Source: a virus. Taken from it: a DNA stretch of 42,543 bases. The DNA is taken from the IMG/VR virus record IMGVR_UViG_3300027674_000003, positions 1 through 42,543 of that record; one strand, 5' to 3'. The notes below the pieces were generated by a model that had not been told where the DNA came from, did not search any database, and was given only the letters and a program-made list of their open reading frames with translations. This document shows, piece after piece, positions 7,276-31,286 of this stretch. The stretch's first letter is position 1; every line of letters starts with the position of its first letter. Position numbers and translations under genes: made by a program.

Positions 7276-7412
7276 TTCTTCTCCTCGGGTTGGGCATCTC
7301 TTTTTACGGCGATTACTTTGTACTCTCGTAAAAAGGCACATTCCCAGCATTTCTGATCGTCGTTTCCGTGGGTGCAGATTCCTTCGCCAAGATAGCTATT
7401 CCTTCCATACAT
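7254..7412 (-). CDS. Hypothetical small Cys-rich protein (52 aa), below the ORF-track size cutoff
   Basis: Manual translation gives MYGRNSYLGEGICTHGNDDQKCWECAFLREYKVIAVKRDAQPEEKKCDDSGS. There is a GAGGAGG RBS 6 nt upstream of the ATG at 7412. Confidence 0.5.
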   Translation of the reverse strand: MYGRNSYLGEGICTHGNDDQKCWECAFLREYKVIAVKRDAQPEEKKCDDSGS

Positions 7413-7467
7413 ATGCAGCCTCCTCAAATCCTACCAGAATCCTTACCTGCGAAATACTTTGGCTTAC

Positions 7468-14352: not shown

Positions 14353-17300
14353 TTAGTCTTCGCCGGGCTCGCGCGCCGGTTTCTTGGCATCCTCGAGTAA
14401 TTCTTTGGCGAGGCGTTCCTTGACGTAGGTTCCCGCCGGGCCGTGCTTGGCAAGCTGCTGCATCCGTCCTTCGCGCAAGAGTTGCGGCATGTGGGGCAGG
14501 TGTTCGAATTGCGCATCGACCGCTTGCCTCTGCTCGTCGGTCAGCGAGTTGTACGTTTTTAGCTGTTCGGCCTTGGATGTCGGTTTGAGTGTTGGGGCGT
14601 TTTGCTTAGCTGGGGTTTCCTTGGCCATCTCTCTCGCGATGCGTTCGCGCGTTTGCTTAACCGAGCCTTCGGGTAGGGTGTACTCGCCGTTGACCGTCTT
14701 GATGTCGTCCACCGCTTGCTTGTATGCGTCGGCGGCGTTCATTCCGCCGGCGTGGAGTTTGTCTTCGTATTCCTCGACCGTGGGAAGCGTTCGCTTCATG
14801 GCCGGGGCGTTTGCTTTGCCGAATATCTCCCGCTGCGGGCTGGCCTCGGTACCGCGAAAGAGCGGGCTTTTCGTTTCCATCTCGCCGGCGGCTGCGGCAA
14901 TGTTTTCGGCCGGGCGATTGGATTGCCTCGTCATTTCCTCGGCTTGGTGCTTTCCGGCGGCCGCTTTGTTCTCTTCGACCGCTTGGGCCATCCCGGGCAG
15001 AACATCTTTATTTTCTGGGACGGGCTTTGTTGCAGCGCCGCCCGTCCCAGGCGTGGGACCATCTGCCTCTCCCGAACTTCCCGCACCTCCTTCCGAGCGC
15101 TGCGGCGATAGCTCATTCGCTCTGGCCTCCAGCTTGCGGTATCTCGCAATCATGGGCCTTTGCGTGTACGCGCTCTTTGTGCCGCTGATTTTTTTGTCCA
15201 GGTCGCGCATCTGGATTTTCAAGTCTTGCAGTTCTCTTACTGGATCTTGTGCGCCTGCTTTTGCCGTTCCCTTCTTTGTGAGGGTCGGTGCATTGGGTTT
15301 CTCTGGTGGCTTGCTTAGTGTTGGCGGCGGCTCTGGGGCTGGTGGTGCGCTGCCTGGCTCGCCCGGAACATTCTCGACCTTACCGAAAATTGGCTTTAGC
15401 GTCGATGCCGCTTTCGTTGCGTTGCCTTCGCGTTCCGCGGTCAGAACACGATTAGAGGTTGGCTGTATCTTAAGCGTCGGCGGTTCGGTCGTTCCTCGCG
15501 GTGCTGCTGCCGCTGGTGCGCGTTCGTGCGGCGTGAGGGTGGTGCTGCCTTTTTCCGGCAATAGCAGTCCCAGCCTTGTTGCTCGCGTGCCTTCGGCTAC
15601 TCGTGGCTGTGGCGCGTTGCGGATAGGACCGCTCGTGTCTGCCGGCGGCGGCGTGACGGTTGCGCCGGGACCGAGTTCGCCTGCAATCTTGACGCCTGGC
15701 GGCGGGGTTATCGCCGCGGAAGGCTCAAACGCCTTTGGTCCTTGGAAAGCCTGATCTATGAGCCATGCGGGAGTGCGGACGAGGCCCAGTCGCTTTCCTA
15801 CGGCCATCGTTGCGCCTGCCTTGGCTGCGCCTAGAACATTCCCGCTTACAAAGTCGCCTGCCGCCCTGAGTGCTGCCAGCCCTTCCCAAAGGTTTGCGCC
15901 CTTCTGCCGGGTTTCCACGGCGTACTGCTTGGCTGACGCGCGCTCGACATCTCTCAGTGCGCCATACCTGCGCTTGAGGTCTGCGGTTCCCTCGCCGGTT
16001 AGTTTCTCCACGCCGTCGTCCAGCATCTTGCGCAGCACCTTGACTTCCGCCTCGGTCGCGGCCGTCTCGGCGGTGATCGGAGAATCGGTCGGGGTTGACC
16101 GCTTGTAATAGCCGCGCAGATCATCGTTCGCGTCCTGAATGGCGTTCTCGATGTCGCGGAAACTTTTCAAGCCTCGATACGTGTCGGCCCTGGCTTGCAC
16201 TTTCTTGGCAATTTCTGGGTACTGCTCCGCTGTCCGCTTGGAGATTGATTTCTCCATCGCATCGGCTACCGCGTTTGTGTCGGCGCTGAGTTTTGCCACA
16301 CTGCCGGTACGCTGCTCGAGAGCGTTCCAGATGTATTGCTTTGCCGCCCTGACTCCATGCAAGAGATCCCCGTTGCTCTTGAATTCGGTTACCGGGTTGC
16401 CTTCGCGGTCGGTGACGAGGCCCGCTTTCTTCACGGCTTGCAAATCCGAACCGGCTATTGGCATCGACTCTTGGGCTCGGGGAATGTTTACTCCAGGCTG
16501 AATGGCTTGGGTGAGCGCTTTGACTGGCTCGGGCTTCACAATTCCGAGAGTCTTTAGGCCAAGATTCGATTCGACTGCTCGGCGAAGCGGCTTAACTACC
16601 GCTTTCACATCTCGCGCGCCTTCAGCAATTCCGCCAGCTCCGAGCGCTGCGCCTCCTGCCGCTTCCGCGCCGCCGGATAATGCCGCTGCCGCCGCTTCAG
16701 GATTTCCCTTGATTGCTTTTGGGGTATTTTTGACGGCGTTGTATCCGCCGTGCAGGGCGAGTCCCGCGCCGGTCAGCGTGGGTGCTATTGGTGCCGCGGC
16801 TGCAATCGCCAGGCTCGACGGCGTAAGCATTCCCGCTCCCATGCGCAGCGTGTCGGCGCCCATGCGTTCCGTTGTCGGTACAGCGTCTCCGGTCGGCACA
16901 GTGTCCGGCACTCTTTGATTTCGGGAATGGAGAATTGGGGCTGGTTGCACTCCACGTGCGGTATTTATTAGTTGCTGCTGGCGTCTTGTCGCCGCATCGG
17001 TTTCCAGTGCTCTTGCTCCCGCCACAAGTGGGATGCCAAGCGGGCCGCCTGCTTCCTTATAGAGTGCTCGACGTTCTGGCAATCTTGCCGCGCCGCCGCC
17101 GCCCGCTAGGCGCTCTCCCGTATTCGTACTTTCAGCTCCCGGGGCCATGATTGGATTTGGTGGCACATCTGTTTTCAGTGGGGCAATTGCCCGCACATTC
17201 GCCATGTTGCGCGCGATGGTCTGGTCGTCCAGGTGGCCGTATTCGGGAAAACTGCTGCGGAAGTTTTGCGGCTGCGATAGGAACTCGCCTATCTTGTCCT

Positions 17301-17391
17301 CGGATTCGCTCGCGAGGCCAGGGTACTTCGTCCTGGCTTCCGCTATCGGATTCCACGCCTGTCCCGTTAGCGCTTGCGGTGTGGTGGTCAT
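14353..17391 (-). CDS. Large virion-associated protein (1012 aa), internal-core/ejection-protein-like by position
   Basis: Last and largest of three consecutive genes of increasing size (328, 538, 1012 aa) after the tail-tube-like genes, as in the T7 gp14/15/16 order. Ala/Gly/Pro-rich linkers; no enzymatic motif seen. Confidence 0.45.
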   Translation of the reverse strand: MTTTPQALTGQAWNPIAEARTKYPGLASESEDKIGEFLSQPQNFRSSFPEYGHLDDQTIARNMANVRAIAPLKTDVPPNPIMAPGAESTNTGERLAGGGGAARLPERRALYKEAGGPLGIPLVAGARALETDAATRRQQQLINTARGVQPAPILHSRNQRVPDTVPTGDAVPTTERMGADTLRMGAGMLTPSSLAIAAAAPIAPTLTGAGLALHGGYNAVKNTPKAIKGNPEAAAAALSGGAEAAGGAALGAGGIAEGARDVKAVVKPLRRAVESNLGLKTLGIVKPEPVKALTQAIQPGVNIPRAQESMPIAGSDLQAVKKAGLVTDREGNPVTEFKSNGDLLHGVRAAKQYIWNALEQRTGSVAKLSADTNAVADAMEKSISKRTAEQYPEIAKKVQARADTYRGLKSFRDIENAIQDANDDLRGYYKRSTPTDSPITAETAATEAEVKVLRKMLDDGVEKLTGEGTADLKRRYGALRDVERASAKQYAVETRQKGANLWEGLAALRAAGDFVSGNVLGAAKAGATMAVGKRLGLVRTPAWLIDQAFQGPKAFEPSAAITPPPGVKIAGELGPGATVTPPPADTSGPIRNAPQPRVAEGTRATRLGLLLPEKGSTTLTPHERAPAAAAPRGTTEPPTLKIQPTSNRVLTAEREGNATKAASTLKPIFGKVENVPGEPGSAPPAPEPPPTLSKPPEKPNAPTLTKKGTAKAGAQDPVRELQDLKIQMRDLDKKISGTKSAYTQRPMIARYRKLEARANELSPQRSEGGAGSSGEADGPTPGTGGAATKPVPENKDVLPGMAQAVEENKAAAGKHQAEEMTRQSNRPAENIAAAAGEMETKSPLFRGTEASPQREIFGKANAPAMKRTLPTVEEYEDKLHAGGMNAADAYKQAVDDIKTVNGEYTLPEGSVKQTRERIAREMAKETPAKQNAPTLKPTSKAEQLKTYNSLTDEQRQAVDAQFEHLPHMPQLLREGRMQQLAKHGPAGTYVKERLAKELLEDAKKPAREPGED

Positions 17392-17483
17392 TGGGTGTAT
17401 CTTCCCGCGCGTGGAGCTTTACGAAATTCAATACCGCTTTCGAGAGTCTTCGCGGCGCGCGGCGCGCGAACTGATTTCTGCAT
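17388..17483 (-). CDS. Possible 31-aa basic ORF, weak
   Basis: Manual translation gives MQKSVRAPRAAKTLESGIEFRKAPRAGRYTQ. The stop overlaps the ATG of the 1012-aa gene (ATGA 17388..17391). No clear RBS. Confidence 0.25.
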   Translation of the reverse strand: MQKSVRAPRAAKTLESGIEFRKAPRAGRYTQ

Positions 17484-17510
17484 GGGTCGCGGTTTTCTTT
17501 GTCTCCTGCC

Positions 17511-17633
17511 TTACACTCTATTCATTGCCCGGCGCCGTTCCCTACGATTGGATTGTTGCCCTTGTCGTCGCGTTCGTTGCTTTTCTTCCGGTTTTCCTTT
17601 TGTATCGGCTGCTGCGATTCGTTCTACTGCCAT
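17511..17633 (-). CDS. Possible 40-aa highly basic ORF, weak
   Basis: MAVERIAAADTKGKPEEKQRTRRQGQQSNRRERRRAMNRV. The ATG overlaps the end of the 538-aa gene. Confidence 0.25.
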   Translation of the reverse strand: MAVERIAAADTKGKPEEKQRTRRQGQQSNRRERRRAMNRV

Positions 17634-19240
17634 CCCGGCGGTAAGGCTCCCGCTGCTGGCGCTGCATGTGGTGGTGGTGCGCCCTCTCCAAATCCCTGCT
17701 CCTGCTTTTGCGCCGTCTTCGCCCATTCCTCAATCGATTGCAGCGCTCCCATCAGTGCTGGAACGGAATCCTTGCCCAGTTCCGCTGTTTGGCCAAATTC
17801 CTCAATCGCTTTGACGCTGTTGATGTGGAACTTCGCGGAAGCGCTGCGCAGAAAGGTCAAATCGGTACGCAGTTTGTTGAGTGCCAGGTCCTTGTCGGGA
17901 TCGCCGGTGCTGCCCACTTTGCCGAGTAGAAAGCCGACATTGACGCGGCCCTCGACCGGACCGAGGTAGCCTTTCAAATCCTCGATTTCTTTTTTGATTC
18001 CCGGCAATTCCGTGACTACGCGCGCGGCCGTCTGCGCCTGGCTGCGCGTTTGTCCCGTTGGCGCGCCGGGCATCTGCGCGCCTATCGGCTGGCCTGTTTC
18101 CGGGCTGAGGGGTTGGCCTTGCGGCACGGGCGCCGCCGTGATTTGCTTCATCAAATCGGGCGGCATATTCATCCCCATGCTCTCAAAAATCTGCGGCATC
18201 ATGGCCAGCAATCGGGGGTCTTTCTCTTGCGCATAGTTCAGCAGGCGAACCATCGCATATGTCCCCAGCCCTGTTTTCTGTTTCTCTGCTTCGTGCTGAA
18301 CTTGCTCGGGCGTCCAATCGGGATGTTCTTTCGCCAGTTGCGCCTCGATGTTGTAGCCTGTCGATTTTGCTTGCGCGGTTTTCTTGTCTTGCGCTACTTG
18401 GGCATCTTGGACAGCCGTTCCCCAATCGGCTTGAGCCTTTGCCGTCGACCCCCGATCCGTTGGAGTTTCCCCCGGCGGTCCCCACAACGGCGTGACTGGT
18501 TTCGGCCCAACAATTTGAAGTATCGGGCCGAGTTTTTCCATCTCCGCGGCGTCGGCGGCCTTGAATTGCTCCGGGTAGAGCGGTGCCATTTGCTGGAGAA
18601 TCACTTTCGCCTGGTTCGTGTCGCCTTTTTGAACCGCGTCCCGATAATCGCTTTCGAAGCGCTCGCGAATCGTTTTCGGCTCGGGGTCGGTCCCCATGAG
18701 TTCGGTGCGCTTTTGAACTTCCGCCGTCTGCGCCTGCTTCCCCGCCAGGTCCGCGGCCGTCATCTCTTCTTTCTCGCGTGTCTGGTGCAGGGTGGTCGGA
18801 TACTGCGCGACTTCCTGCCTCTGCTTGTCGAGGTCCGAGCCCCACTGCTGGACGGCCCTTGCCCCTTCGCCCGGCCTGCCGAATTCCATTGCGCCGTAGG
18901 CGAGTGAACGCGCCAGGGTAGACTTCCAGCCTGGTTCCTGAAAACTTGGCTTTGCCGGCACGGCGTTAGGGTTTTCCTTCGCCCAATCCTCATCGGTTTG
19001 GAATGGTTTCGGCTGAACCGTTGCCGCCGACGCGTTGGTCATTGCCGGACCTTGCGGCGTGGTTGGTGTAAGCGTCGGCGGCGCTGGCTTTGACGGATCG
19101 TTTCCCGCGTTCGCGGCTGCGCCCGTGCCGGGAACCGTGCCGCCCTGCGGAGACTGCCCGGGCTGCGGCGTCTTGCCCTGGGCAAGTAGCAGCGCGAGCT
19201 TTTGGCGGATCAGTTCTTCGGGTGTGGGTTGGTCGGCCAT
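17624..19240 (-). CDS. Large virion-associated protein (538 aa), internal-core-like by position
   Basis: Pro/Gln/Gly-rich N-terminus followed by helical regions. Sits between the Hint-domain protein and the 1012-aa protein. Confidence 0.45.
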   Translation of the reverse strand: MADQPTPEELIRQKLALLLAQGKTPQPGQSPQGGTVPGTGAAANAGNDPSKPAPPTLTPTTPQGPAMTNASAATVQPKPFQTDEDWAKENPNAVPAKPSFQEPGWKSTLARSLAYGAMEFGRPGEGARAVQQWGSDLDKQRQEVAQYPTTLHQTREKEEMTAADLAGKQAQTAEVQKRTELMGTDPEPKTIRERFESDYRDAVQKGDTNQAKVILQQMAPLYPEQFKAADAAEMEKLGPILQIVGPKPVTPLWGPPGETPTDRGSTAKAQADWGTAVQDAQVAQDKKTAQAKSTGYNIEAQLAKEHPDWTPEQVQHEAEKQKTGLGTYAMVRLLNYAQEKDPRLLAMMPQIFESMGMNMPPDLMKQITAAPVPQGQPLSPETGQPIGAQMPGAPTGQTRSQAQTAARVVTELPGIKKEIEDLKGYLGPVEGRVNVGFLLGKVGSTGDPDKDLALNKLRTDLTFLRSASAKFHINSVKAIEEFGQTAELGKDSVPALMGALQSIEEWAKTAQKQEQGFGEGAPPPHAAPAAGALPPGWQ

Positions 19241-19241
19241 C

Positions 19242-20228
19242 TTATTCTAATGACCAAAATTCGGAACTTAGATAATCGTGGCTGCCGTCCGTGAGAACCT
19301 GATAGACCGTCTGCTTTCCGAGGTCGGTCATGGTCCTCACAATCGACGGGCCTTTATAGGTTCGGACGTACTGCAAGAGGGCATCTTCCATGCGGGCGTA
19401 TCCCCCGAGCGGCAGGACGATTGTGTGTTTGCGTGAGGCGCAGAGAGTGCAGCCGTTCATCGCTTCGATTTTCACGCATTGGACCGCCTCATATATTCTG
19501 AGCGCCGTCACGCGGTTTTCCTTGCCGTTTTGCGAGGCGAGAGGCATTCCCGGCAATACGTTCTGAACGGCGATCAGGCTTCCATCGGCCAGCATGAGCA
19601 TGGTGCCTTCGCAGAGACAGGTCATCGCGCCGCTTGCCGCCGTGCCGCCCGCGCTAAGCGCGCTGTCGAGGATGCCGATGTTTTGACCGCGTGTGTCCGT
19701 CGCGGCCTTTTGTCCGGTTCCGTAAAGATTCGTGTATGCGCCCGTTCCCTGTCCCGTCTGCGTGTTGGCCGTGCCGGATGCGGTATTGGTGGCTTTCCAG
19801 AAATTGTTGAGGGCGTCCTGATAGCTGTTGCCGGCGAATTGCGAGAACAGTTGGCCGTTGTTCTGCGCGTTCGACATATCGGCCTGACTCTTCAGGAATC
19901 CGGTATAGCCTGACGGTGCGCCTGTGCCGAAACCTCGCTGGCCGGCCTCCCGATCAATTGCCTGTTTCGCTTGGTCTGTGTTTGTCGCGCCTTGCGCTTT
20001 GGCTTGGTTGTACTGGAGGGCGTAGGGGCCGGTGGGCTGGGTGACGTCCAGGCTCGCCGGGTTCATCATTCCCGAAAGCGTGCCGCCCGACATTCCCCCG
20101 CCGCCGGGCTTGGGCGTTCCGAAAAGTGTGGCGTTTAATCCTTCGCCGGTTGCGGTGGAACTGCCTGCCGCGTTTGAACCGGCTCCGAATGCTTGATCCG
20201 CTTGTTTCTGTTGGTGGCCGCCGCCCAT
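19242..20228 (-). CDS. Gly/Gln/Asn/Thr-rich protein with a C-terminal Hint (Hedgehog/intein-like) domain (328 aa)
   Basis: About 200 aa of low-complexity sequence, then CLCEGTMLMLADGSLIAVQNVLPGMPL (Hint block A pattern C-x-x-x-G-T-x-V...DG). SRKH resembles block B (TxxH). The protein ends ...GSHDYLSSEFWSLE, with no terminal HN and no extein. Confidence 0.6.
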   Translation of the reverse strand: MGGGHQQKQADQAFGAGSNAAGSSTATGEGLNATLFGTPKPGGGGMSGGTLSGMMNPASLDVTQPTGPYALQYNQAKAQGATNTDQAKQAIDREAGQRGFGTGAPSGYTGFLKSQADMSNAQNNGQLFSQFAGNSYQDALNNFWKATNTASGTANTQTGQGTGAYTNLYGTGQKAATDTRGQNIGILDSALSAGGTAASGAMTCLCEGTMLMLADGSLIAVQNVLPGMPLASQNGKENRVTALRIYEAVQCVKIEAMNGCTLCASRKHTIVLPLGGYARMEDALLQYVRTYKGPSIVRTMTDLGKQTVYQVLTDGSHDYLSSEFWSLE

Positions 20229-20238: not shown

Positions 20239-20721
20239 CTATGACGCTTGACTCAATTCTGGAGAATTGATTTTAGGGCTTGTGGCTAACGGGTCACGCA
20301 TCTGCACGTCTTTCCACATGAGACGCGCTCGACTGTAGACGGCCGGCTTCATTCCGTATTCGAGGGCGACTTTCTCCATGCGCTTGTTGGAAATTGCTCC
20401 GAAGTAGCGATTTAGCCCGGTCGTGTTTTTCGTTGAATCGCCGAGCCATGCTTCCATCGCGCGGATTAGTTTGTAGACTGCCCTGCGTTTTGTGATCGGG
20501 CTCGCGTCCCGGTCGAATTCCGGCGTGAGCCAAAGAGGCTCGATTTGCCAGATCAGCCGCGCGCCGATGCAGCCTGAAAGAATCTCGTTGTGCTTGATGA
20601 CGTACAGAATTCGCCTGTCCAGGTCGTGGCTCTCGTTGTTCGTTTGGGCGAGACGATTGCATAGGTACTTCAGGTCCTCGGCCGTGGGGACGGAGATTGT
20701 TCCGTTGAAAGGTTCGGTCAC
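20239..20721 (-). CDS. Hypothetical protein (160 aa), last gene of the modification island
   Basis: GTG start overlaps the C5-MTase stop (GTGA 20718..20721). No motif recognised with confidence. Confidence 0.55.
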   Translation of the reverse strand: MTEPFNGTISVPTAEDLKYLCNRLAQTNNESHDLDRRILYVIKHNEILSGCIGARLIWQIEPLWLTPEFDRDASPITKRRAVYKLIRAMEAWLGDSTKNTTGLNRYFGAISNKRMEKVALEYGMKPAVYSRARLMWKDVQMRDPLATSPKINSPELSQAS

Positions 20722-21593
20722 GCGCTCACCGCTTTAATTTGCGGCTTGAAACACCGGGCGATGTGCTGCGCCAGTGGAAAGGGTATCTTGGCGATTTCGG
20801 CGGAGGCGGCTTTGCGGGAATCGGATTTGGAAGTGCGATCTGGAACCATGCGGTTGTTTGACTTGAGCGTCCCGTTTGGACGCCATCCCGAGGCATCATT
20901 TTTCTCGGCTCTAAATCTCTGCGCGTTCCGCACGTTGAATCCGACTTCGCTTAGCTTCGTACCTGGAGATTTCAAGCCGCGCACAGACGCAGACTGGAAC
21001 GACCCTTGACCATTAAAACGAAAGCCGGGAACCTTGCGCCCATCTGGATTGCCGCCTACGGTCTTCTGATTCGGAGCCCCGATTGCAAACCATGAGCCGC
21101 CGCCAACGTCGATATTTTTAGAAGCTTTAAATGTTGGCGGCATCAACGCCGGAACATCTCCCCACAGGTAATAGCTTCCGAAATGCCATAGTGCAGAGCC
21201 GACCCAGCGTTCCGCCCCGCGCACATTCTCCACAATCATTGGAATGTAATGCCCTGCCGCTTCACTTGCCTCACGCTGGATGCGGAAGCAGGCGTTGAAC
21301 AGTTCGATGAAGTTGTGCGGCGGTCCTATCGCGTTGAGTGCCTTCGCCCGACTCCATGGCATCGCGCGATAGCTTGGCTCCTGGCATGGCGGAGATGCCA
21401 CGATGCACGTTGCATCTGCAAGCTGCGAGCCGTGAATGCTGCGCACGTCGCAGAGAATCAGTTCGCCGGGATACGTCCCTGTGCCGTAATCGTGCTTTTC
21501 GATGTCGTAGCCGATGCAGTGAAATCCTTCGGAGAGGAAGCCTTCCGCCCAGCCGCCGAGGCCGCAGTACAGGTCATAGCAGATTGGTTTCAT
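20718..21593 (-). CDS. dcm: DNA (cytosine-5)-methyltransferase (291 aa from MKPICYD)
   Basis: Motif I DLYCGLGGW, motif IV SPPCQ, motif VI ENV. The ATG at 21593 forms ATGA with the upstream stop. The 144-aa N-terminal extension in the track is Arg/Pro-rich and overlaps the upstream gene. Confidence 0.85.
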   Translation of the reverse strand: MKPICYDLYCGLGGWAEGFLSEGFHCIGYDIEKHDYGTGTYPGELILCDVRSIHGSQLADATCIVASPPCQEPSYRAMPWSRAKALNAIGPPHNFIELFNACFRIQREASEAAGHYIPMIVENVRGAERWVGSALWHFGSYYLWGDVPALMPPTFKASKNIDVGGGSWFAIGAPNQKTVGGNPDGRKVPGFRFNGQGSFQSASVRGLKSPGTKLSEVGFNVRNAQRFRAEKNDASGWRPNGTLKSNNRMVPDRTSKSDSRKAASAEIAKIPFPLAQHIARCFKPQIKAVSA

Positions 21594-21994
21594 GGGCTCA
21601 CAATCGACTGCGGCCCATGCAGAATCGCCGCGTTGTTCGGATTGAGCGCCGTGATGCGCAGCCAGTAGAAAACTTTCTTGCCGGCAATCTTCGCGCTGAT
21701 GTCGGCGTAGTTCACGAGATTGGCTTCCGACACCGCCGCACTGAATTCCGTCAGTTGCGTGGCGTTGCCGAAGTCGCGCGTCAGGTTGCGATAGACTTGC
21801 ACCGAGCTTACGCCTGGCACGCTCGCGATGCGGAAGGCGATTTGGACGTGGCCTGCGGCTGGGCCTGGGGTGACGCGGAATATCTGGGTGGGGTCGCTGA
21901 AACCTGGGCCTGGGGTGACTAGCTTTTGGACTTTGCTCGTGAGGTCTTGAAGGACCGCGCTTTGCTGCTGCTGGCCTATGCGGACGCCGGTCAC
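21590..21994 (-). CDS. FN3/Ig-like beta-sandwich protein (134 aa)
   Basis: Tandem 15-aa units VTPGPGFSDPTQIFR / VTPGPAAGHVQIAFR. SSVQVYRN...KVFYWLRITALN resembles an FN3-type strand pattern. GTGA overlap at 21991..21994. Confidence 0.5.
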   Translation of the reverse strand: MTGVRIGQQQQSAVLQDLTSKVQKLVTPGPGFSDPTQIFRVTPGPAAGHVQIAFRIASVPGVSSVQVYRNLTRDFGNATQLTEFSAAVSEANLVNYADISAKIAGKKVFYWLRITALNPNNAAILHGPQSIVSP

Positions 21995-22851
21995 AAAAGC
22001 TGCCTCTGCGACATTGAAGATTCACAATTCTTTACGTTCTTCGTTCGCTTCTCGGAAAGATCGTGGGCCATCTCTTGCTCTGCCATCGCGCAGAAAAACG
22101 AGCATGATATTTCTGGCTCGTCATGTCGGCCTTTGTTTGGCGGTAGATTTCTCAGCGAGTAGCGTTCACCTGTCTCGCGGTCCCTAAATAAGAATGCTCC
22201 TGGGCCAATGGATTCCTGCACGTCTGCAAGAGCTACAAAATTCTCAGGAAAATCAATGCGCTGCCTATTGAAGTAGCCTTCGCCGCCCTTCACACAGCAT
22301 TTGCAGTTGTTATTGTTGTAGCCGAGTAGGTACATCGCTGGAAGGGCAATTCCCGCCCTTTCAATCATCGCCAAGGTATCAGCCTTTTTCAGTCCTCTTT
22401 CGATTAGCGGGAAAAGCATTTTGCGCCCATTGTTTGTGTCCATGAGTTCACTGGCGCGGTCTTCCTCCTCGGCGGTAAATCCGATCACCCAAATATCATC
22501 GGGCAAACCAGCAGCTTCGAGCACATCGCCTTTGAGAGCTTTGCGGCACGGTGCTCCCATTTGCCCTTTCAGATAGCGCTTGCGCTTGAACACCTCGATC
22601 ACAGATGCCCCATACTTTGTGTCGCGCAGAACTGTAATGGGATGACCGAACCATGTTTCGCAATCGGCACTAAAGCGGTCGTTGTCCTCATGCTCTTCTT
22701 TGATCCACGCCCGCAGGATGTGAACGCGCTCGGCGGAATATTCTCCAAGAATCAGTTTGGTTGCCACAGCAGATGCGGCTCCGCAAGAGAAACGGGAAAC
22801 GATCCTCGGCAAGTGCCGCGCATCGCCTTTGATGAATCGGATGTCGGTCAT
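21991..22851 (-). CDS. PAPS-reductase-fold (CysH/DndC-like) PP-loop enzyme (286 aa)
   Basis: N-terminal SRFSCGAASAVATKL resembles the CysH-type nucleotide-binding loop. C-terminal Cys clusters NNCKCCVKGG and ISCSFFC. ATGA overlap with the Dam stop. Confidence 0.55.
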   Translation of the reverse strand: MTDIRFIKGDARHLPRIVSRFSCGAASAVATKLILGEYSAERVHILRAWIKEEHEDNDRFSADCETWFGHPITVLRDTKYGASVIEVFKRKRYLKGQMGAPCRKALKGDVLEAAGLPDDIWVIGFTAEEEDRASELMDTNNGRKMLFPLIERGLKKADTLAMIERAGIALPAMYLLGYNNNNCKCCVKGGEGYFNRQRIDFPENFVALADVQESIGPGAFLFRDRETGERYSLRNLPPNKGRHDEPEISCSFFCAMAEQEMAHDLSEKRTKNVKNCESSMSQRQLL

Positions 22852-23702
22852 GGGGCCGCGTCCTCGGCAAAAGTCATTTGCGGGGTTACTCTTGCGGCGC
22901 GCTCATTCATCCAGACCACTTCGACGCGCTTCCGTGCTCCATCGGCTCGCCAAGGAATTTCAATTCGTCGCCAATCGGGGAAAAGTTCGCAGTCGTAGAG
23001 CGGCGAGGCGTAGCCGCTTAGAATCACCATCCCGCGCACTGCCCTGAGAATTTGGGCAAGTTTCCGGTGATCGTTGTCGGCCATGTCGCACGAATAAACC
23101 GCGTTGCCTCGCGCCATATTGCGAGTTCCCACCTGGTAGGGTGGATCGCAATAGAAAAGTGTTTCGGATGTGTCGTGCTGCGGAATGAGTTCGAGCGCGT
23201 CTTTGTTTTCGATGACCACGCCACGCAATCGCTCTGTGAATGATGCGATTGAATCTGGAAAGTTCATCCAATCATGCGCTGGCGTAGTGCCACTTCTGTT
23301 TGAATTGGAGCGGAAGCCGGTTGCGTAATCTCCATTTATCGCGGCTGATCCAAAGCCAGCGAATGAGCGAAGGATGCAAAGGCGAGCAGCTTCTATATCG
23401 GCTGGCCGTTGTACCCTGTGGCCAAAAGCGGAATTGAATTCACTTCGCGCGAAGGGCGTCAGTCTCAGTTGCTCTTTAAGCTGCTCAGCTATTTCAGGAT
23501 CGCGCAGGCATTGGAAGACGTTAACAACCGTGTCCCATTTGTCGTTGATGACTTCGGCGTAGGAGCGCGGCTTTTGCATGAGCACTGAAGCAGCTCCACA
23601 AAACGGTTCGACGTAGATTCGATGTCGCGGAAACAAACTAATCAAAACTCGCGCGAACAACCACTTGCCGCCGTGATACCGAAGTATAGGCCTGCCTTTC
23701 AC
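22848..23702 (-). CDS. dam: DNA N6-adenine methyltransferase, Dam/D12 class (284 aa)
   Basis: RYHGGKW at the N-terminus, EPFCGAASV (AdoMet loop) and YCDPPY (motif IV). GTG start overlaps the upstream stop (GTGA 23699..23702). Confidence 0.85.
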   Translation of the reverse strand: MKGRPILRYHGGKWLFARVLISLFPRHRIYVEPFCGAASVLMQKPRSYAEVINDKWDTVVNVFQCLRDPEIAEQLKEQLRLTPFARSEFNSAFGHRVQRPADIEAARLCILRSFAGFGSAAINGDYATGFRSNSNRSGTTPAHDWMNFPDSIASFTERLRGVVIENKDALELIPQHDTSETLFYCDPPYQVGTRNMARGNAVYSCDMADNDHRKLAQILRAVRGMVILSGYASPLYDCELFPDWRRIEIPWRADGARKRVEVVWMNERAARVTPQMTFAEDAAP

Positions 23703-25732
23703 GGCACCAGTGCCTTAATCGGTCGTGCGCTCACACTCAGCCGGTAGAGCGTGCTCGCCGTATTATCGTTCAGGAAGATTACGGCAAACCTAAACCAGTG
23801 GCCGAGGTTCGCTCCTGTCACGTCTTTGATGTTTCCCCGCGCCGCCGTCGGCTCGTTGCGATTGCCGGTCTGAAACGGATTGAGCGGCACGTCCACCATT
23901 GGGAGCTGCATGTCCGGGGATAGTACACCGAGCGCCTTGAGTTGGAAAGCGGTATAGGCGTCTTGCCGGTCGGTCACGAGATCGGCCCACATGGCCAGCT
24001 TCTCGACGTTCGCAATTGGCATTGGATGAAACATACTTCCGCCATGGTAGACCTTCAGCGCTGACCACGCGCTGCCCCACACGCCGTAATACCCCTTGCC
24101 CGCATCCAGAAAGCCATCGGGCCAGCGATAGACGTTCCCGAGCTGGTCGCCCATGAAGAGGTACATTTGATTCGCTACTTCAACGAGCGCCGCGGCGGTC
24201 ATGATGTCCGAAGGCCAGAAATCCGACTCCGCGATAATGTGTGTCGTGCCGTCTTCGAGCACGGTTGGAATCAGCGTTTGCGCCAGCACCTTTGGCAAAA
24301 ACGTCATGTCCCACACTTGAATCCAGTCGTAGGTTCCCGGCGGCGCTGCTCCCGTGTTCACCAGCAGCATGATCCACTCGTAGCGCCCGAAGGAATACCA
24401 CTTGAGGACCGCGTTTTTTAGCTGCGAGGCGGGAATGTCTTCCATGCTCATCGTCCCGGTGAGTTGCTTGGCAATGAGCATCGAAAGGTCCAGCGGAATG
24501 TTTACGCCGTCCCAGGCGTAGAGTTTTCTGTCCGCGCTCAGCCAAATAAGATGCGTTCTGCTGGTCGTCGCGGCTTGCTTTCCCACGGCTCCGGGTTCGG
24601 CTACCTTGTCCTTTTCCTCGAAGTTCGTTACATCGCTTCCCGAGAGCGAAAACCAGAATCTTTCCGTCGAAACGTAGAGCGACTGGTTCCAGACTTGGCC
24701 GTTCGTGAATTGGTGCTTGCCGCCGGGGATCTTGAAAAACAGGTATGGGGGCGCCGTCTCGGCCGGGACTCCCAGACTGATTTCGCTTCCGCCGCACGCC
24801 TGGATGATGTTGGGCTCGCCGTTCACGCGCAACAAGATCGGACGGCCGGCGTACTGCACGATGATTTCCGCCGGGGGAACCGGAAAGTTGAGAAGCGGCG
24901 CCAGTCGCGTCGGATCGAGAAATTGGTCGTTGAGCGTGTCCGTGAACGCGGGCGCGGCAATTGGCACTTCGCCCAAGAACTGAAAAACCGACGCTGAATT
25001 GTTTGGCGTGTCGTAGGTTGAAAAATACCAGATGTGCGTCACCTGGGCATCGACTCCCGCCGTGTTCAAGTTCAAAGCCACGCTGCCGTTCACGACGGGG
25101 CCGGTAAACAGCGAGATTGCGGACGCAAGTCCCACGCTGATTCGCGTGTCTCCCAGCGCGTCCGTGATTTTGGCCACGTAAGCGGCCATGTACTGACGGC
25201 CGAATTGCAAATTCAGGATTCCCGAGCCTTGCGAGACAACGAAGGTCGACGCGGCCACCGGAGGGCCGATTCCCCAGTTGAATTTCGTGAGGCTTCCGGC
25301 AACGTCAACCAAGCGGTAGGCCGCGAGTCCGTTCGATGTGTAGCAGGCGAAATCCAAACTGGAGAAGTCGAAAAGCGCGGTGAGGTCTTCGTAGGGCGGC
25401 GTTGACACGATGACGTTGTTTCCGAATGTAGGCCCTAAGACGTTCCCGGCAATTATAAATGACCTGTTCCCGGCGGGGGTGACAAGCTGACTGAGCAAAA
25501 ACTGGGCGTTATCGGAATCCCTTTGAAAATCGAACAGTTTGAGAACTTTTCCCGTGTTGTCGAAGTGTTCGACCAGCGTATAGCCCGGGCGCTTGGCTAC
25601 GGCTTTATCGCCTAGAAACACCACGTTGGACGCAAGCAAGCACTGCTCCGGAGACATTTCCGTGAGATTTTTGTTGCTGCATCTTCCGCCGAGGAAGTTG
25701 GAGAAGACTTGGACGTTGAGCCCTTGGATCAT
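23699..25732 (-). CDS. Large tail structural protein (677 aa), nozzle/tail-tubular-B-like by position
   Basis: Fourth gene after the capsid gene. Beta-rich composition, and its size fits a podovirus nozzle. No motif-level support. Confidence 0.4.
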   Translation of the reverse strand: MIQGLNVQVFSNFLGGRCSNKNLTEMSPEQCLLASNVVFLGDKAVAKRPGYTLVEHFDNTGKVLKLFDFQRDSDNAQFLLSQLVTPAGNRSFIIAGNVLGPTFGNNVIVSTPPYEDLTALFDFSSLDFACYTSNGLAAYRLVDVAGSLTKFNWGIGPPVAASTFVVSQGSGILNLQFGRQYMAAYVAKITDALGDTRISVGLASAISLFTGPVVNGSVALNLNTAGVDAQVTHIWYFSTYDTPNNSASVFQFLGEVPIAAPAFTDTLNDQFLDPTRLAPLLNFPVPPAEIIVQYAGRPILLRVNGEPNIIQACGGSEISLGVPAETAPPYLFFKIPGGKHQFTNGQVWNQSLYVSTERFWFSLSGSDVTNFEEKDKVAEPGAVGKQAATTSRTHLIWLSADRKLYAWDGVNIPLDLSMLIAKQLTGTMSMEDIPASQLKNAVLKWYSFGRYEWIMLLVNTGAAPPGTYDWIQVWDMTFLPKVLAQTLIPTVLEDGTTHIIAESDFWPSDIMTAAALVEVANQMYLFMGDQLGNVYRWPDGFLDAGKGYYGVWGSAWSALKVYHGGSMFHPMPIANVEKLAMWADLVTDRQDAYTAFQLKALGVLSPDMQLPMVDVPLNPFQTGNRNEPTAARGNIKDVTGANLGHWFRFAVIFLNDNTASTLYRLSVSARPIKALVP

Positions 25733-25734: not shown

Positions 25735-26754
25735 CTAATCGAGGTCTTGCAAGTACGTTTCCTGTCGGGTCGGCTGCTGGTTCTGCCGGTTGCGCACAAA
25801 GGTCAGGAATTCAGTGGTCTTCTGCATAGCCTGTTGCTCGTACTGCGGCGCGAGGTCGTCGCTGTTTCCTCTCAATAGCTCTGCCTTCGCAAAGTCCAGT
25901 TGCGCGCCGTGACCCTCGTCGGGAATTACGTTGTACGAATTGGCATTGTAGATGTCTACCCACTTCGCGGCGTAGATTATTTCCGTCTGCCTCTGGTCGG
26001 AGGGCGGCGGCGCAAGTCTCACTTTATAGGGGCCTTTGTCCTGCGTCGGCTGGCCGATTGGTGGGGGCCACGTTCCTGCGGCTGTCACACCGAGCGAAGT
26101 CTGCTGATTGAGGGGAAGTGTCGCCATCGGAAAGGGTGACACACGATAGCTCGAGCTGAATGCCACCGTCAGCCATGAGAAAACACCCGCGTTCGATACC
26201 ACAAGCTGCCAGGAAGTCGTGTTGCCCGCATCGTTCAAGTAAAACGGCACAATCGGCGGAAGCGCGGAGCCGAACATCGGCGTGCTGGTCGGAAGTCCCG
26301 CATCGTTGATGCCGAATTGCCAGTAGGTCCCGTTTGGCGCGAGACACACGATTGCCTGCGGCCCTGCGGCGCGCGGCAAGTACGGCCCGGCATAAACGAA
26401 GTCGGATTGCAGAAGATCAAGTGACAACACGATGGGCTCAAACTGGCGGTTGGTGAACAGATCGGTTCGCACGTCGGCAGGCTGAATCCGGCGGTAGTTC
26501 GTTTCCCCTGGAAGGCGTTCTCCAAAGCGGATCATCGTCGCCAGGTCCGGCGGGCAGGCGTACTCGTCTTGCCCGGGGACCGTCTGGATTGAAGTTGAAT
26601 CCCATTTGATGAAATAGTTCGAGAGTTCCTTGGCAATCCACAGGTACACGCGGCGCCCGCCCTCGTTGATGGCCGCAAACACATCGTCCGGCTGGTTCGT
26701 GTGGCTGTAGTAGCTGCCACGGTCGGCCAGCGCGAACATTTGAGCGAGGGTCAA
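25735..26754 (-). CDS. Tail/adaptor structural protein (339 aa), by position
   Basis: TTG start overlaps the upstream stop (TTGA 26751..26754). Sits between the capsid-proximal genes and the 677-aa gene. Confidence 0.4.
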   Translation of the reverse strand: MTLAQMFALADRGSYYSHTNQPDDVFAAINEGGRRVYLWIAKELSNYFIKWDSTSIQTVPGQDEYACPPDLATMIRFGERLPGETNYRRIQPADVRTDLFTNRQFEPIVLSLDLLQSDFVYAGPYLPRAAGPQAIVCLAPNGTYWQFGINDAGLPTSTPMFGSALPPIVPFYLNDAGNTTSWQLVVSNAGVFSWLTVAFSSSYRVSPFPMATLPLNQQTSLGVTAAGTWPPPIGQPTQDKGPYKVRLAPPPSDQRQTEIIYAAKWVDIYNANSYNVIPDEGHGAQLDFAKAELLRGNSDDLAPQYEQQAMQKTTEFLTFVRNRQNQQPTRQETYLQDLD

Positions 26755-30785: not shown

Positions 30786-31286
30786 TCAGTCCGGGAACTG
30801 GCTATTCGGCCTTGGTCCCCGATAATCGTGATCTTTCAAGATGAATCTGCCCGTCGAATCCGTCTTCGGATCGCCCGTCGGCAATTGCGCGTGAATTTCA
30901 GGGTTGAACGGTTCGCCGTGGCGGCTGACCGGCTGTTCCGCTCGTGGCCCTGCTTGCGGTTGCCGTACTTGCGGTGCTGCGCCGAGTGTTGGCGGTCGCT
31001 GCTGCGAATCGTCGTGAGCCTTCGCGGCGAGAATCGTGTCCACGCCCTTTTCCTGCACGATTTCGATTGCCATGTCGTGACTGTAGCCCTTCGCTTCGAC
31101 ATAAGCGATTGCGGCATCCGTGTCAGGTCCGGGAGTCAGGTCCGGTTTCTGTGGCGCGGTTTTCGTCAGGTCGCCGAGAACGGCGTCGTGCGCGGCCTTT
31201 GCTGGCGCTGCCGCTTGGCCTGCACCGATGCCTGTCTTTAACGCGTCAAGCTCGGATTTGGCTGGAAGGTTCGATTGGTCGGTCAT
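30786..31286 (-). CDS. Hypothetical protein after portal (166 aa)
   Basis: ATGA overlap with the portal stop (31283..31286). Ala/Pro/Gln-rich. Confidence 0.55.
   Translation of the reverse strand: MTDQSNLPAKSELDALKTGIGAGQAAAPAKAAHDAVLGDLTKTAPQKPDLTPGPDTDAAIAYVEAKGYSHDMAIEIVQEKGVDTILAAKAHDDSQQRPPTLGAAPQVRQPQAGPRAEQPVSRHGEPFNPEIHAQLPTGDPKTDSTGRFILKDHDYRGPRPNSQFPD

What the first reader, a model, noticed from the sequence alone, without database searches (positions are those of the whole stretch)
20239..23702. DNA-modification island embedded in the virion-gene operon: Dam-type and C5-type methyltransferases bracket a CysH/DndC-like enzyme
Seen in sequence: five consecutive genes are chained by 4-nt start/stop overlaps (GTGA 23699-23702, ATGA 22848-22851, GTGA 21991-21994, ATGA 21590-21593, GTGA 20718-20721). 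They interrupt an otherwise structural run, with a 677-aa nozzle-like gene upstream and Hint/internal-core-like genes downstream. Motifs identify an N6-A MTase (YHGGK, DPPY) and a C5 MTase (DLYCGLGGW, PPCQ, ENV). A 286-aa protein has a CysH-like loop (FSCGAASAV) and Cys clusters (NNCKCCVKGG, CSFFC). Established knowledge: the PAPS-reductase fold includes DndC (DNA phosphorothioation) and the BREX type 4 BrxP protein, as well as assimilatory CysH. Inference: translational coupling to late virion genes suggests self-modification of progeny DNA around packaging, possibly beyond methylation, as an anti-restriction module. The unassigned 134-aa FN3-like and 160-aa proteins could be accessory parts. 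The alternative is a sulfur-metabolism auxiliary gene that happens to sit next to orphan MTases.
Basis: partly seen in the sequence, partly recalled or inferred. Interest (0 to 1): 0.75.

Follow-up and report, generated by a model that had tools for sequence, protein, structure and literature searches.

The report
Three anti-restriction cargo genes, not one island
A soil podovirus has picked up two orphan DNA methylases and a PptA-type sulfur-relay enzyme as separate mobile genes in its tail-gene operon; they are not a conserved five-gene DNA-modification machine.

Summary
The sequence observation holds. Five minus-strand genes at 20239-23702 are chained by the stated 4-nt overlaps, and every quoted motif is present.

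The "island" reading does not hold. In eleven related phages with this region readable (three close, eight distant), a 134-aa-type domain and a 160-aa homologue are fixed backbone genes between the nozzle-like gene and the Hint-like gene. The Dam, C5 and 286-aa genes are absent, replaced or placed differently. These three genes also have lower GC3 (0.56-0.63) than the backbone (0.67-0.76). The closest homologues of the 286-aa and C5 genes (58-84% identical) mostly lie in early regions of unrelated phages.

The 286-aa protein is neither CysH nor DndC. It belongs to a large phage family (at least 5,969 homologues) whose only solved relative is PptA of Vibrio phage VH-5 (PDB 21fy, E 2e-59). Entry 21fy also contains E. 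coli IscS, the host cysteine desulfurase, which suggests an IscS-dependent sulfur-transfer enzyme.

The substrate is unknown. Phosphorothioation of phage DNA is plausible but unproven, and the phage encodes no partner ATPase. I found no paper on PptA.

Verdict: a new member of a known kind, of moderate interest.

The parts
23699..25732 (-). 677-aa nozzle-like tail gene. Backbone gene and upstream border of insertion slot 1.
   Evidence: It follows an SU10-like adaptor (PF24175) and has no family hit itself. Homologues of 74-88% identity lie at the same position in L093-L095, and of 33-39% in L097-L104. The family has only 74 representatives at 50% clustering. GC3 is 0.729.
22848..23702 (-). 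Cargo gene 1: orphan Dam-type (D12 class) N6-adenine DNA methyltransferase, 284 aa. GTG start overlaps the stop of the 677-aa gene.
   Evidence: Hits are PF02086 at E 5.4e-18 (66 bits, cut-off 22), phrog_56 at 5e-57 and PADLOC MTase_II at 1e-51. The DPPY motif is present. The gene is absent from all related phages examined. GC3 is 0.558 against 0.67-0.76 for the backbone.
21991..22851 (-). Cargo gene 2: PptA-family PAPS-reductase-fold (PP-loop/AANH superfamily) enzyme, 286 aa. ATGA overlap with Dam.
   Evidence: It matches PDB 21fy_C PptA at E 2.2e-59 over residues 13-256, and the family profile matches at 3e-83. PptA is the protein of Vibrio phage VH-5. Entry 21fy also holds E. coli IscS. Other hits are phrog_424 at 7e-36, none in Pfam, and PADLOC SspD at 3e-4 for a local stretch. 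The AF2 model has pLDDT 89.6, and Foldseek gives QueC, TtuA, LarE and APS reductase at TM 0.3-0.46. Six cysteines are invariant: C64, C102, C183, C186, C250 and C254. GC3 is 0.568.
21590..21994 (-). Backbone virion-module gene of unknown function, 134 aa. It separates the two insertion slots and is not part of the modification cargo.
   Evidence: It has no family or PDB hit. Homologues of 51-87% identity lie directly after the nozzle or slot-1 cargo in L093, L094 and L095. In seven of eight distant relatives the same domain is the N-terminal part of a 390-770 aa protein in this slot. GC3 is 0.756, which is backbone-like.
20718..21593 (-). Cargo gene 3: short C5-cytosine DNA methyltransferase-like protein, 291 aa from the ATG at 21593.
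   Evidence: It matches PF00145 at 25.7 bits (cut-off 22) over residues 6-125 only, and phrog_363 at 1.5e-9. At least 8,000 homologues exist, with invariant motif I (DL..GLGGW), motif IV (SPPCQ), motif VI (ENV) and a C-terminal AKIP..L...IA motif. In the AF2 model residues 1-145 are confident and 150-255 fall below pLDDT 50. The top Foldseek hit is M.HaeIII at E 1e-4. A 58%-identical homologue sits in the other slot (nozzle|134-aa) in L094. The closest homologue (77%) lies in an early region of another phage. GC3 is 0.627.
20239..20721 (-). Backbone virion-module gene of unknown function, 160 aa. Downstream border of insertion slot 2.
   Evidence: Only 6 homologues were found among 5.8 billion proteins, and all those examined lie in the same nozzle-to-Hint-like slot. 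Distant homologues of 31-41% identity occur in 8 of the distant relatives. It has no family or PDB hit. GC3 is 0.683.
19242..20228 (-). 328-aa backbone gene with a Hint-like C-terminal motif (context only).
   Evidence: Homologues follow the 160-aa homologue in all relatives. It has no Pfam hit at E<=0.1 other than noise.

Best explanation
Architecture. The block is a mosaic, not a machine. The late virion operon of this roughly 42.4-kb podovirus-like phage has a fixed backbone order: adaptor, 677-aa nozzle-like gene, 134-aa gene, 160-aa gene, Hint-like gene, then large internal proteins. Two junctions in this order act as insertion slots for mobile cargo. Slot 1 lies between the nozzle-like gene and the 134-aa gene; slot 2 lies between the 134-aa and 160-aa genes. 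In this phage, slot 1 holds Dam plus the 286-aa enzyme and slot 2 holds the C5-type methyltransferase. All three are read through from the late operon by 4-nt overlaps.

Methyltransferases (inferred from family membership). Both are orphan enzymes that pre-methylate progeny DNA against host restriction.

The 286-aa protein. Shown: it belongs to the phage PptA family, a divergent branch of the PAPS-reductase/PP-loop fold. It has a CysH-like degenerate nucleotide loop (SCGAAS) and six invariant cysteines. Its solved relative was deposited in complex with the host cysteine desulfurase IscS. Inferred: it takes sulfur from host IscS through its cysteines, possibly via an Fe-S site (CxxC at 183/186 plus C64/C102) and a flexible C-terminal cysteine pair (C250/C254). 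It then delivers or diverts that sulfur for counter-defence, most likely acting on phage DNA. This would parallel the PAPS-domain/Dam fusion that lets Vibrio podophages escape the phosphorothioate-dependent Dnd system.

Dam coupling (speculation). The tight Dam/286-aa pairing may be a split version of that fusion.
For: Architecture:
- Overlaps were read directly.
- L093 (major head protein 87.5%, nozzle 74%) runs nozzle, 134-aa, 160-aa, Hint-like with no cargo.
- L094 has a C5 homologue in slot 1 and a weakly HNH-like gene plus an 85-aa gene in slot 2.
- L095 has an unrelated 254-aa gene in slot 1.
- Eight distant relatives (L097-L104) have a 160-aa homologue (L101 the exception) and none of the three cargo genes. 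Seven of them also have the 134-aa-type domain.
- GC3 is 0.56-0.63 for cargo and 0.67-0.76 for backbone.
- The closest homologues of the 286-aa gene (74-84% identical) lie in RecT/ERF/DnaB/MerR early regions.
- None of 80 IMG/VR loci with a homologue carries the other four genes.

Enzyme identity:
- PptA matches at E 2e-59, and the profile matches at 3e-83 with no other solved relative.
- PptA is 100% identical to a Vibrio phage VH-5 ORF.
- The exact native E. coli IscS sequence occurs only in PDB entries 1p3w and 21fy.
- The fold is AANH/PAPS-reductase-like.
- Six cysteines are invariant in 35 sequences and are also conserved in PptA.

Counter-defence context:
- Neighbours of homologues are enriched for C5 methylases (7 of the loci sampled), Mom (2) and nin-region genes.
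- A PAPS-domain/Dam fusion locus confers anti-Dnd activity in Vibrio phages (bioRxiv 10.1101/2021.05.05.442762; cited as such in PMC13551039).
Against: - No paper describing PptA could be found. Its activity and substrate are therefore unknown to me, and the IscS complex could reflect inhibition or sequestration rather than sulfur relay.
- All established phosphorothioation systems need a P-loop NTPase as well as the PAPS-domain protein (PMC12914056). The phage encodes none detectable, and no DndE/SspB-like protein either.
- The canonical SGGxDS PP-loop of DndC/SspD is absent.
- I could not show that the Vibrio anti-Dnd PAPS domain belongs to the same subfamily, because it did not appear in the phage-collection search.
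- Dam adjacency is not a family trait. There was no tblastn hit in 80 loci, and D12 was not among the top neighbour families.
- The C5-like protein has about 100 residues that AF2 cannot model where the target-recognition domain should be, so its activity is not assured.
Confidence: 0.6

Rival explanations
1. First reader's model. The five genes form one co-evolved DNA-modification module, in which the 134-aa and 160-aa proteins are accessory subunits. The module modifies progeny DNA at packaging.
For: The genes have uninterrupted 4-nt overlaps and a common orientation. No internal promoter or terminator exceeds chance.
Against: Homologues of the 134-aa and 160-aa genes are present in relatives that lack all three enzymes. 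The enzymes occupy different slots in different relatives. No co-occurrence was seen in 80 viral loci. GC3 splits the five genes into two classes.
Confidence: 0.03
2. The 286-aa protein is an auxiliary metabolic gene. It would be an assimilatory PAPS/APS reductase that boosts host sulfur assimilation, and it lies next to methyltransferases by chance.
For: PHROG 424 is labelled 'PAPS reductase, auxiliary metabolic gene'. The nucleotide loop resembles the degenerate CysH loop more than the SGGxDS loop (sequence, own knowledge). Foldseek lists APS and PAPS reductases at TM 0.41-0.46.
Against: There is no PF01507 or NCBIfam CysH hit at E<=0.1. There is no ECGLH-type tail. The family profile finds no CysH among 177,635 PDB sequences. 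Homologues lie among nin, recombination and methylase genes rather than metabolic genes. The solved relative is bound to IscS, which is not a partner of assimilatory CysH (own knowledge).
Confidence: 0.05
3. The protein is mainly an IscS binder that diverts or blocks the host cysteine desulfurase. This would starve host phosphorothioation (Dnd/Ssp) or other IscS-dependent pathways, without modifying phage DNA itself.
For: IscS and PptA occur in one PDB entry. The phage has no NTPase or DNA-recognition partner. The PP-loop is degenerate.
Against: Six invariant cysteines and a well-conserved nucleotide-binding fold across at least 5,969 homologues point to catalysis rather than simple binding. 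Blocking host phosphorothioation late in infection would not protect incoming or progeny phage DNA from DndFGH, which attacks unmodified DNA (established model).
Confidence: 0.15
4. The enzyme thiolates RNA (tRNA) rather than DNA, like its fold relatives TtuA, TtcA, ThiI and MnmA. This could repair or protect tRNAs targeted by host defences, or tune translation.
For: Among the top Foldseek hits are TtuA, a [4Fe-4S] tRNA thiolase, and QueC, a PP-loop ATPase of queuosine precursor synthesis. These enzymes also depend on IscS-derived sulfur (PMC12914056). Some mycobacteriophage relatives are annotated 'tRNA methyltransferase', though this is weak evidence.
Against: The Foldseek matches are weak (TM 0.3-0.4). 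The recurrent neighbours are DNA methylases, Mom and DNA-metabolism genes. The one genetic result for a phage PAPS domain concerns a DNA-based defence.
Confidence: 0.12

Closest known systems
PptA of Vibrio phage vB_VhaP_VH-5 (PDB 21fy chain C; QGH73774 in MN497414)
   Same: The two align over their full lengths (residues 13-256, E 2e-59, about 43% identity). The SCGA.S loop is the same, as are the NNNNCxxC(V)KGG and (I)xCSxxC motifs and all six invariant cysteines. Both are single-domain proteins of about 250-290 aa encoded by podoviruses and placed next to virion genes.
   Different: The host clades differ (marine Vibrio versus an unidentified host, identical block also in a JGI metagenome). 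VH-5 has no adjacent methyltransferase. The window protein has about 30 extra C-terminal residues, predicted helical at modest confidence (pLDDT about 65-72). The function of PptA is not available to me.
PAPS-domain/Dam fusion protein p0018 of Vibrio crassostreae podophages (anti-Dnd locus; Piel et al., bioRxiv 10.1101/2021.05.05.442762, Nat Microbiol 2022)
   Same: A PAPS-reductase-type domain is physically linked to a Dam methyltransferase in a podovirus. Here the link is a translationally coupled gene pair instead of a fusion. It is a mobile cargo gene exchanged between otherwise syntenic phages.
   Different: Here there are two separate genes in the order Dam then PAPS-like, whereas the fusion runs PAPS then Dam. 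Homology between the two PAPS domains was not tested, because the sequence was not retrievable. Anti-Dnd activity has not been shown for this family.
DndC / SspD / BrxP (PAPS-reductase-domain subunits of bacterial DNA phosphorothioation systems)
   Same: They share the superfamily fold, conserved cysteines and dependence on a cysteine desulfurase (IscS, DndA or SspA). There is a weak local PADLOC SspD match (E 3e-4, residues 121-186).
   Different: There is no canonical SGGxDS PP-loop. There is no DndD, SspC or BrxC ATPase and no DndE or SspB partner anywhere in the genome. There is no DUF4007 fusion as in BrxP. The protein is phage-encoded and travels as a single gene.
Assimilatory PAPS/APS reductase CysH (PF01507)
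   Same: The nucleotide loop is degenerate (S.G..S.V type), there is a GY....C..C segment, and the C-terminal tail is cysteine-bearing and flexible. Foldseek TM is 0.41-0.46.
   Different: There is no Pfam or NCBIfam hit, no ECGLH motif and no profile match to any solved CysH. The genomic context is not metabolic.
Orphan phage DNA methyltransferases (Dam D12 class; short PF00145 C5 methylases, phrog_363)
   Same: The Dam and C5-like genes match these families, with catalytic motifs intact. No cognate restriction endonuclease was detected by Pfam or PHROGs in the genome.
   Different: The C5-like protein is short (291 aa). It has a variable, unmodelled stretch of about 100 residues in place of a recognisable target-recognition domain.

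Membership tests
PptA family (phage PAPS-reductase-fold proteins; PDB 21fy_C) | Full-length sequence similarity to PptA | tested here: met
   phmmer gives E 2.2e-59 over residues 13-256 against 24-263 of 270. The family profile gives E 3.3e-83.
PptA family (phage PAPS-reductase-fold proteins; PDB 21fy_C) | Conserved cysteine set and SCGA.S loop | tested here: met
   C64, C102, C183, C186, C250 and C254 are invariant in 35 homologues. All six are aligned to cysteines in PptA.
PptA family (phage PAPS-reductase-fold proteins; PDB 21fy_C) | Binding to the cysteine desulfurase IscS | not testable with these tools
   This is only inferred. The exact native E. coli IscS sequence is found in entry 21fy and in one other entry, 1p3w.
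Assimilatory PAPS/APS reductase (CysH, PF01507) | Match to the PAPS_reduct profile or the CysH equivalog | tested here: not met
   There is no Pfam or NCBIfam hit at E<=0.1. The profile search of the PDB finds no CysH.
Assimilatory PAPS/APS reductase (CysH, PF01507) | C-terminal ECGLH-type catalytic motif | tested here: not met
   The C-terminal conserved segment is EP(E)ISCSxFC, and no ECG[LI]H occurs in the translation.
Assimilatory PAPS/APS reductase (CysH, PF01507) | Adenine-nucleotide alpha-hydrolase fold | tested here: met
   The AF2 model has pLDDT 89.6. Foldseek matches APS reductase 2goy/4bwv and CysH 6vpu at TM 0.41-0.46, all with weak E-values.
DndC / SspD (DNA phosphorothioation) | Canonical PP-loop SGGxDS (ATP pyrophosphatase) | tested here: not met
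   The loop is F-S-C-G-A-A-S-A-V, and S22, G24, A26 and S27 are invariant. That SGGxDS is the defining motif is my own knowledge.
DndC / SspD (DNA phosphorothioation) | Co-encoded P-loop NTPase (DndD/SspC/BrxC) and DNA-recognition subunit (DndE/SspB) | tested here: not met
   No such family appears among the remaining 43 ORFs of the genome by Pfam or PHROGs, or among the genes of the block. The requirement is stated in PMC12914056.
DndC / SspD (DNA phosphorothioation) | Profile match to DndC/SspD models | tested here: inconclusive
   The only PADLOC hit is SspD at E 3.1e-4 over residues 121-186. There is no DndC hit.
BREX type 4 BrxP | PAPS domain fused to a DUF4007/SspB-like domain, with brxC, brxZ and brxL neighbours | tested here: not met
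   The protein is a single domain of 286 aa, with no BREX models hit in PADLOC and no such neighbours. The architecture is taken from PMC12914056.
Dam-type (D12 class) N6-adenine DNA methyltransferase | PF02086 above the gathering score, plus the DPPY catalytic motif | tested here: met
   The score is 66.1 bits against a cut-off of 22, covering residues 9-224. CDPPYQ is in the translation. The TIGR00571 score of 55.5 is below its cut-off of 114.85, so this is not the Dam equivalog itself.
C5-cytosine DNA methyltransferase (PF00145) | Motifs I (FxGxG), IV (PCQ) and VI (ENV), with a profile hit above the cut-off | tested here: met
   The score is 25.7 bits against a cut-off of 22. All three motifs are invariant in 35 homologues. 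Foldseek's top hit is M.HaeIII 1dct_A at E 1e-4.
C5-cytosine DNA methyltransferase (PF00145) | Complete small domain: motif VIII, target-recognition domain, motifs IX-X | tested here: inconclusive
   The Pfam match covers residues 6-125 only. In the AF2 model pLDDT is below 50 for residues 150-255. Only a conserved C-terminal helix (AKIPFPLAQHIA) resembles motif X.
Five-gene 'DNA-modification island' as one conserved unit | Co-occurrence of the five genes in related phages or around homologues | tested here: not met
   None of 80 IMG/VR loci has the partners. Three close relatives and eight distant ones keep a 134-aa-type domain and a 160-aa homologue (L101 excepted) without the enzymes, or with different cargo.

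The most novel reading that the evidence does not exclude
Dam and the PptA-like enzyme would work together as a split form of the Vibrio PAPS-Dam anti-Dnd fusion. Dam would supply sequence-specific DNA binding. The PptA-like enzyme, loaded with sulfur by host IscS, would install a phosphorothioate or other thio-modification on progeny phage DNA without the DndD/E or SspB/C partners that all known systems need. That would be a minimal, phage-encoded DNA sulfur-modification system expressed with the virion genes.
Probability: 0.15. Interest if true: 0.75.

Novelty: new member of a known kind. Interest (0 to 1): 0.35.

Why it matters
Phage proteins annotated 'PAPS reductase' are very common; this subfamily alone has at least 5,969 homologues. 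They are usually labelled as sulfur-metabolism auxiliary genes. This case adds evidence that the label is wrong for the subfamily. The proteins are single-gene mobile cargo that lands beside DNA methylases, Mom and nin-region genes, and the one solved member is bound to the host cysteine desulfurase.

If the family installs or mimics phosphorothioate marks, it would be a widespread phage counter-defence against Dnd/Ssp/BREX-4-type immunity. It might also be a minimal sulfur-insertion enzyme of biotechnological interest.

The locus also shows a practical point for annotation. Translational coupling within a phage late operon does not show that the coupled genes work together. Here two junctions of the tail-gene operon act as slots that take different cargo in sister phages.

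Tried and rejected
1. Literature on 'PptA': six full-text searches and one on IscS plus phage found no paper. The name and the IscS partnership come from PDB sequence records only. 'Ppt = phage phosphorothioation' is my guess and is not used as evidence.
2. The Foldseek PDB library ends on 2026-04-08 and does not contain 21fy, so no structural superposition on PptA was possible.
3. Single-protein scans of IMG/VR with the 286-aa and 677-aa proteins found nothing. Alignment-based scans worked.
4. I looked for other chains of 21fy among the neighbours (Dam, 134-aa, C5, 160-aa) and found none.
5. DndC/BrxP membership was rejected on the PP-loop and the missing partners. CysH was rejected on the missing profile hit and the missing ECGLH.
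6. I considered that the 160-aa protein might be a GNAT/Mom-like acyltransferase, judging from its sequence pattern. Pfam, including PF25680 Mom, gives nothing at E<=0.1, and synteny argues for a virion-module role.
7. I looked for the Vibrio phage 44E38.1 PAPS-Dam fusion in the phage collection using the 286-aa protein at E<=1. It was not found, so homology to the proven anti-Dnd domain remains open.
8. The lambda NinC link rests only on another record's annotation (LESphi4 'NinC') and on NinB/NinG/RusA neighbours. It was not verified by sequence.

Full report
**What is in the sequence**

The window is a complete, circularly assembled phage genome. Its first 99 bases repeat at the end, and the same contig is in ENA as a 42,585-bp record. 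Most predicted genes are on the minus strand.

Family searches place the following genes:
- a large terminase at 1895-3316
- a P22-type portal at 31283-33943
- a major head protein at 27947-29173
- an SU10-like adaptor at 25735-26754

The 677-aa gene that follows the adaptor has no family hit. It sits where podovirus nozzle genes sit.

The translations contain all the quoted motifs.

**The three enzymes**
- The 284-aa protein is a D12-class adenine methyltransferase. It matches PF02086 at E 5e-18, phrog_56 at 5e-57 and PADLOC MTase_II at 1e-51, and it has the DPPY motif.
- The 291-aa protein scores just above the Pfam cut-off for C5 methylases, over its first 125 residues only. It belongs to a very large family of short proteins (at least 8,000 hits). 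In this family motif I, the SPPCQ catalytic motif, ENV and a C-terminal AKIP..L..IA helix are invariant. An AlphaFold model is confident for residues 1-145 and for the last helix but not for residues 150-255. Its best PDB match is M.HaeIII. I accept it as a C5-type methyltransferase with an atypical, variable middle region; activity is not assured.
- The 286-aa protein has no Pfam or NCBIfam hit at all. It matches PHROG 424, labelled 'PAPS reductase'. It also gives a weak local hit to the PADLOC SspD model.

**Identity of the 286-aa protein**

Against all PDB sequences it has one real match: chain C of entry 21fy, named PptA, at E 2e-59 over nearly its full length. A profile built from 35 homologues raises this to 3e-83 and still finds no CysH, DndC or any other solved protein.

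The PptA sequence is 100% identical to a hypothetical protein of Vibrio phage vB_VhaP_VH-5. In that phage the gene lies between the RNA polymerase gene and the portal gene.

Entry 21fy is newer than the Foldseek library, so I could not superpose my model on it. The model itself is good (pLDDT 89.6). It shows the adenine-nucleotide alpha-hydrolase fold, with weak similarity to QueC, TtuA, LarE, and APS and PAPS reductases. Among viral models it resembles 'PAPS reductases' and QueC.

To learn what else is in 21fy, I searched the PDB sequences with E. coli IscS. The exact native 404-aa sequence occurs in only two entries, 1p3w and 21fy. PptA was therefore solved together with the host cysteine desulfurase. 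IscS is the enzyme that feeds sulfur to DndC, ThiI, TusA and similar acceptors (own knowledge; for DndC/SspD).

The family has six invariant cysteines: C64, C102, C183-x-x-C186 and C250-x-x-x-C254. It also has a degenerate nucleotide loop, FSCGAASAV. All of these are conserved in PptA.

From this I infer an IscS-dependent sulfur-transfer enzyme. I found no publication on PptA in ten searches, so its substrate is unknown to me.

**Is the block a unit?**

It is not. The 160-aa protein has only six homologues in 5.8 billion proteins. Their contigs turned out to be sister phages:
- L093 (major head protein 87.5% identical, nozzle 74%) runs nozzle, 134-aa homologue, 160-aa homologue, Hint-like gene, with none of the three enzymes.
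- L094 (nozzle 88%) has a 58%-identical C5 methylase between the nozzle and the 134-aa gene. It also has a weakly HNH-like gene plus an 85-aa gene between the 134-aa and 160-aa genes.
- L095 (nozzle 81%) has an unrelated 254-aa gene after the nozzle.

In eight more distant relatives from IMG/VR (nozzle 33-39% identical), none has Dam, the PptA-like gene or the C5 gene there. In seven of them the 134-aa sequence is the N-terminal part of a 390-770 aa protein in the same slot, followed by a 160-aa homologue and the Hint-like gene. The eighth, L101, showed only the Hint-like gene downstream of the nozzle.

So the 134-aa and 160-aa genes are backbone genes of the virion module. The two junctions beside the 134-aa gene are slots that hold different cargo in different phages.

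Codon composition agrees with this. GC3 is 0.73 for the nozzle, 0.76 for the 134-aa gene and 0.68 for the 160-aa gene. It is 0.56 for Dam, 0.57 for the PptA-like gene and 0.63 for C5.

**Where the cargo comes from**

The 286-aa protein has at least 5,969 homologues. The seven closest whose contigs I read (74-84% identical) lie in other phages, and in five of them among RecT, ERF, DnaB, MerR or HNH genes. In some cases other methylases lie a few kilobases away. One has a Mom gene 2.6 kb downstream, and one is overlapped by a Sulfotransfer_4 gene.

In 80 IMG/VR loci with homologues of 44-63% identity, tblastn finds no relative of the window's Dam, 134-aa, C5 or 160-aa proteins within 8 kb.

I ran Pfam on 140 co-directional neighbours from these loci. 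The counts were:
- C5 methylase: 7
- integrase: 7
- DUF1376: 5
- NinB: 4
- helicase: 4
- NinG: 3
- RusA: 3
- ERF: 3
- Mom: 2

No D12 Dam appeared among the top families.

A position next to packaging or virion genes does recur. Examples are Pseudomonas phage LESphi4 (just before the large terminase), Vibrio phage 236O40-1 (between terminase and portal) and VH-5. It is nevertheless the minority pattern.

The closest C5 homologue (77%) also lies in an early region of another phage.

**Mechanism**

Shown:
- the gene order, the overlaps and the mosaic origin of the block
- the family memberships
- the co-deposition of PptA with IscS

Inferred:
- The two methylases are orphan anti-restriction enzymes. 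No restriction endonuclease was detected by Pfam or PHROGs in the genome; the only nuclease hit is an exonuclease-type PD-(D/E)XK protein.
- The PptA-like enzyme takes sulfur from host IscS and uses it for counter-defence.

The best precedent is genetic. In Vibrio crassostreae podophages, a two-gene cargo locus lets the phage plate on a Dnd-carrying host, and swapping it switches host range (cited). The main product of that locus is a PAPS-domain/Dam fusion. The Dam/PptA-like pair here, joined by an ATGA overlap and sharing the same low GC3, looks like a split form of that fusion.

Several points weigh against simple phosphorothioation by the phage alone:
- Every established system needs a P-loop NTPase with the PAPS-domain protein, and this genome has none detectable.
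- The canonical SGGxDS loop is missing.
- I could not show that the Vibrio PAPS domain belongs to the PptA subfamily.

Sequestration of IscS and RNA thiolation remain live rivals.

**Comparison and verdict**

The 286-aa protein is a member of the PptA family, on full-length similarity and conserved cysteines. It is not CysH, DndC, SspD or BrxP by the tests I could run.

The finding is a new member of a known but poorly published family, in a clear example of cargo slots within a late operon. Interest is moderate. The open question is what PptA-type enzymes do with IscS sulfur. Others already appear to be working on it, and it cannot be answered from sequence.

Noticed in passing
window 1-99 and 42445-42543: There is an exact 99-bp terminal repeat, so the window is a circularly assembled complete genome of about 42.4 kb. 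The same contig is ENA ERZ27256019 k141_813524, and the identical cargo block also occurs in JGI 3300001593 and Logan ERR1700674.
   Followed up: partly
window 21590-21994; L097-L104 (for example L099:8953-11262 and L100:8941-10548): In distant relatives the 134-aa sequence (residues about 39-131) is the N-terminal domain of a much larger protein of 390-770 aa in the same slot. The short gene here may be a truncated or minimal form of a tail-associated protein. None of the large forms has a Pfam hit, except L103, whose C-terminus has a sub-threshold Hint domain.
   Followed up: partly
window 19242-20228: The 328-aa protein has a Gly/Gln/Thr-rich N-terminal half and a Hint-like C-terminal motif (CLCEGTMLMLADGS...). 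Pfam gives no hit at E<=0.1. In some relatives only the N-terminal roughly 170 residues are conserved. It may be a self-processing internal virion protein.
   Followed up: no
contig of P0014 (Logan ERR11571140; gene at 5716-7008 before the homologue at 7001-7804) and L088:4478-5077: A 79%-identical homologue of the 286-aa protein is overlapped by an upstream 430-aa Sulfotransfer_4 (PF17784) gene. A Mom-family gene lies 2.6 kb downstream on the sister contig. A sulfotransferase next to a PAPS-fold enzyme could hint at a different sulfur chemistry (sulfation) for some family members.
   Followed up: no
L094:3022-3471 and 3468-3725; L095:774-1538: Other cargo in the same two slots of sister phages: a 149-aa protein with a weak HNH match, an 85-aa ORF, and a 254-aa protein with only a weak treble-clef/HNH hint. 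The slots may be maintained by homing-type mobile genes.
   Followed up: partly
whole window: GGNCC occurs 142 times against about 279 expected from base composition, and GCGC 465 times against about 279. GATC is at expectation (153 against 153.5). The GGNCC depletion could reflect restriction pressure. The expectation is a crude mononucleotide model.
   Followed up: no
window 20239-20721: The sequence pattern of the 160-aa protein (…IEPLWLTPEFDR…RRAVYKLIRAMEAWL…NKRMEKVALEYGMKP) looks to me like a GNAT-type acyltransferase core. No profile supports this (Pfam E<=0.1 gives nothing relevant) and it was not folded.
   Followed up: no
window 14353-19240 and 37065-41544: Several large proteins (1012, 538, 443 and 716 aa) have no hit in Pfam or PHROGs. 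The nozzle-like family has only 74 representatives among 1.84 billion clustered proteins. This is a sparsely sampled phage lineage, possibly infecting soil Acidobacteriota, judging only from names attached to a few homologues.
   Followed up: no
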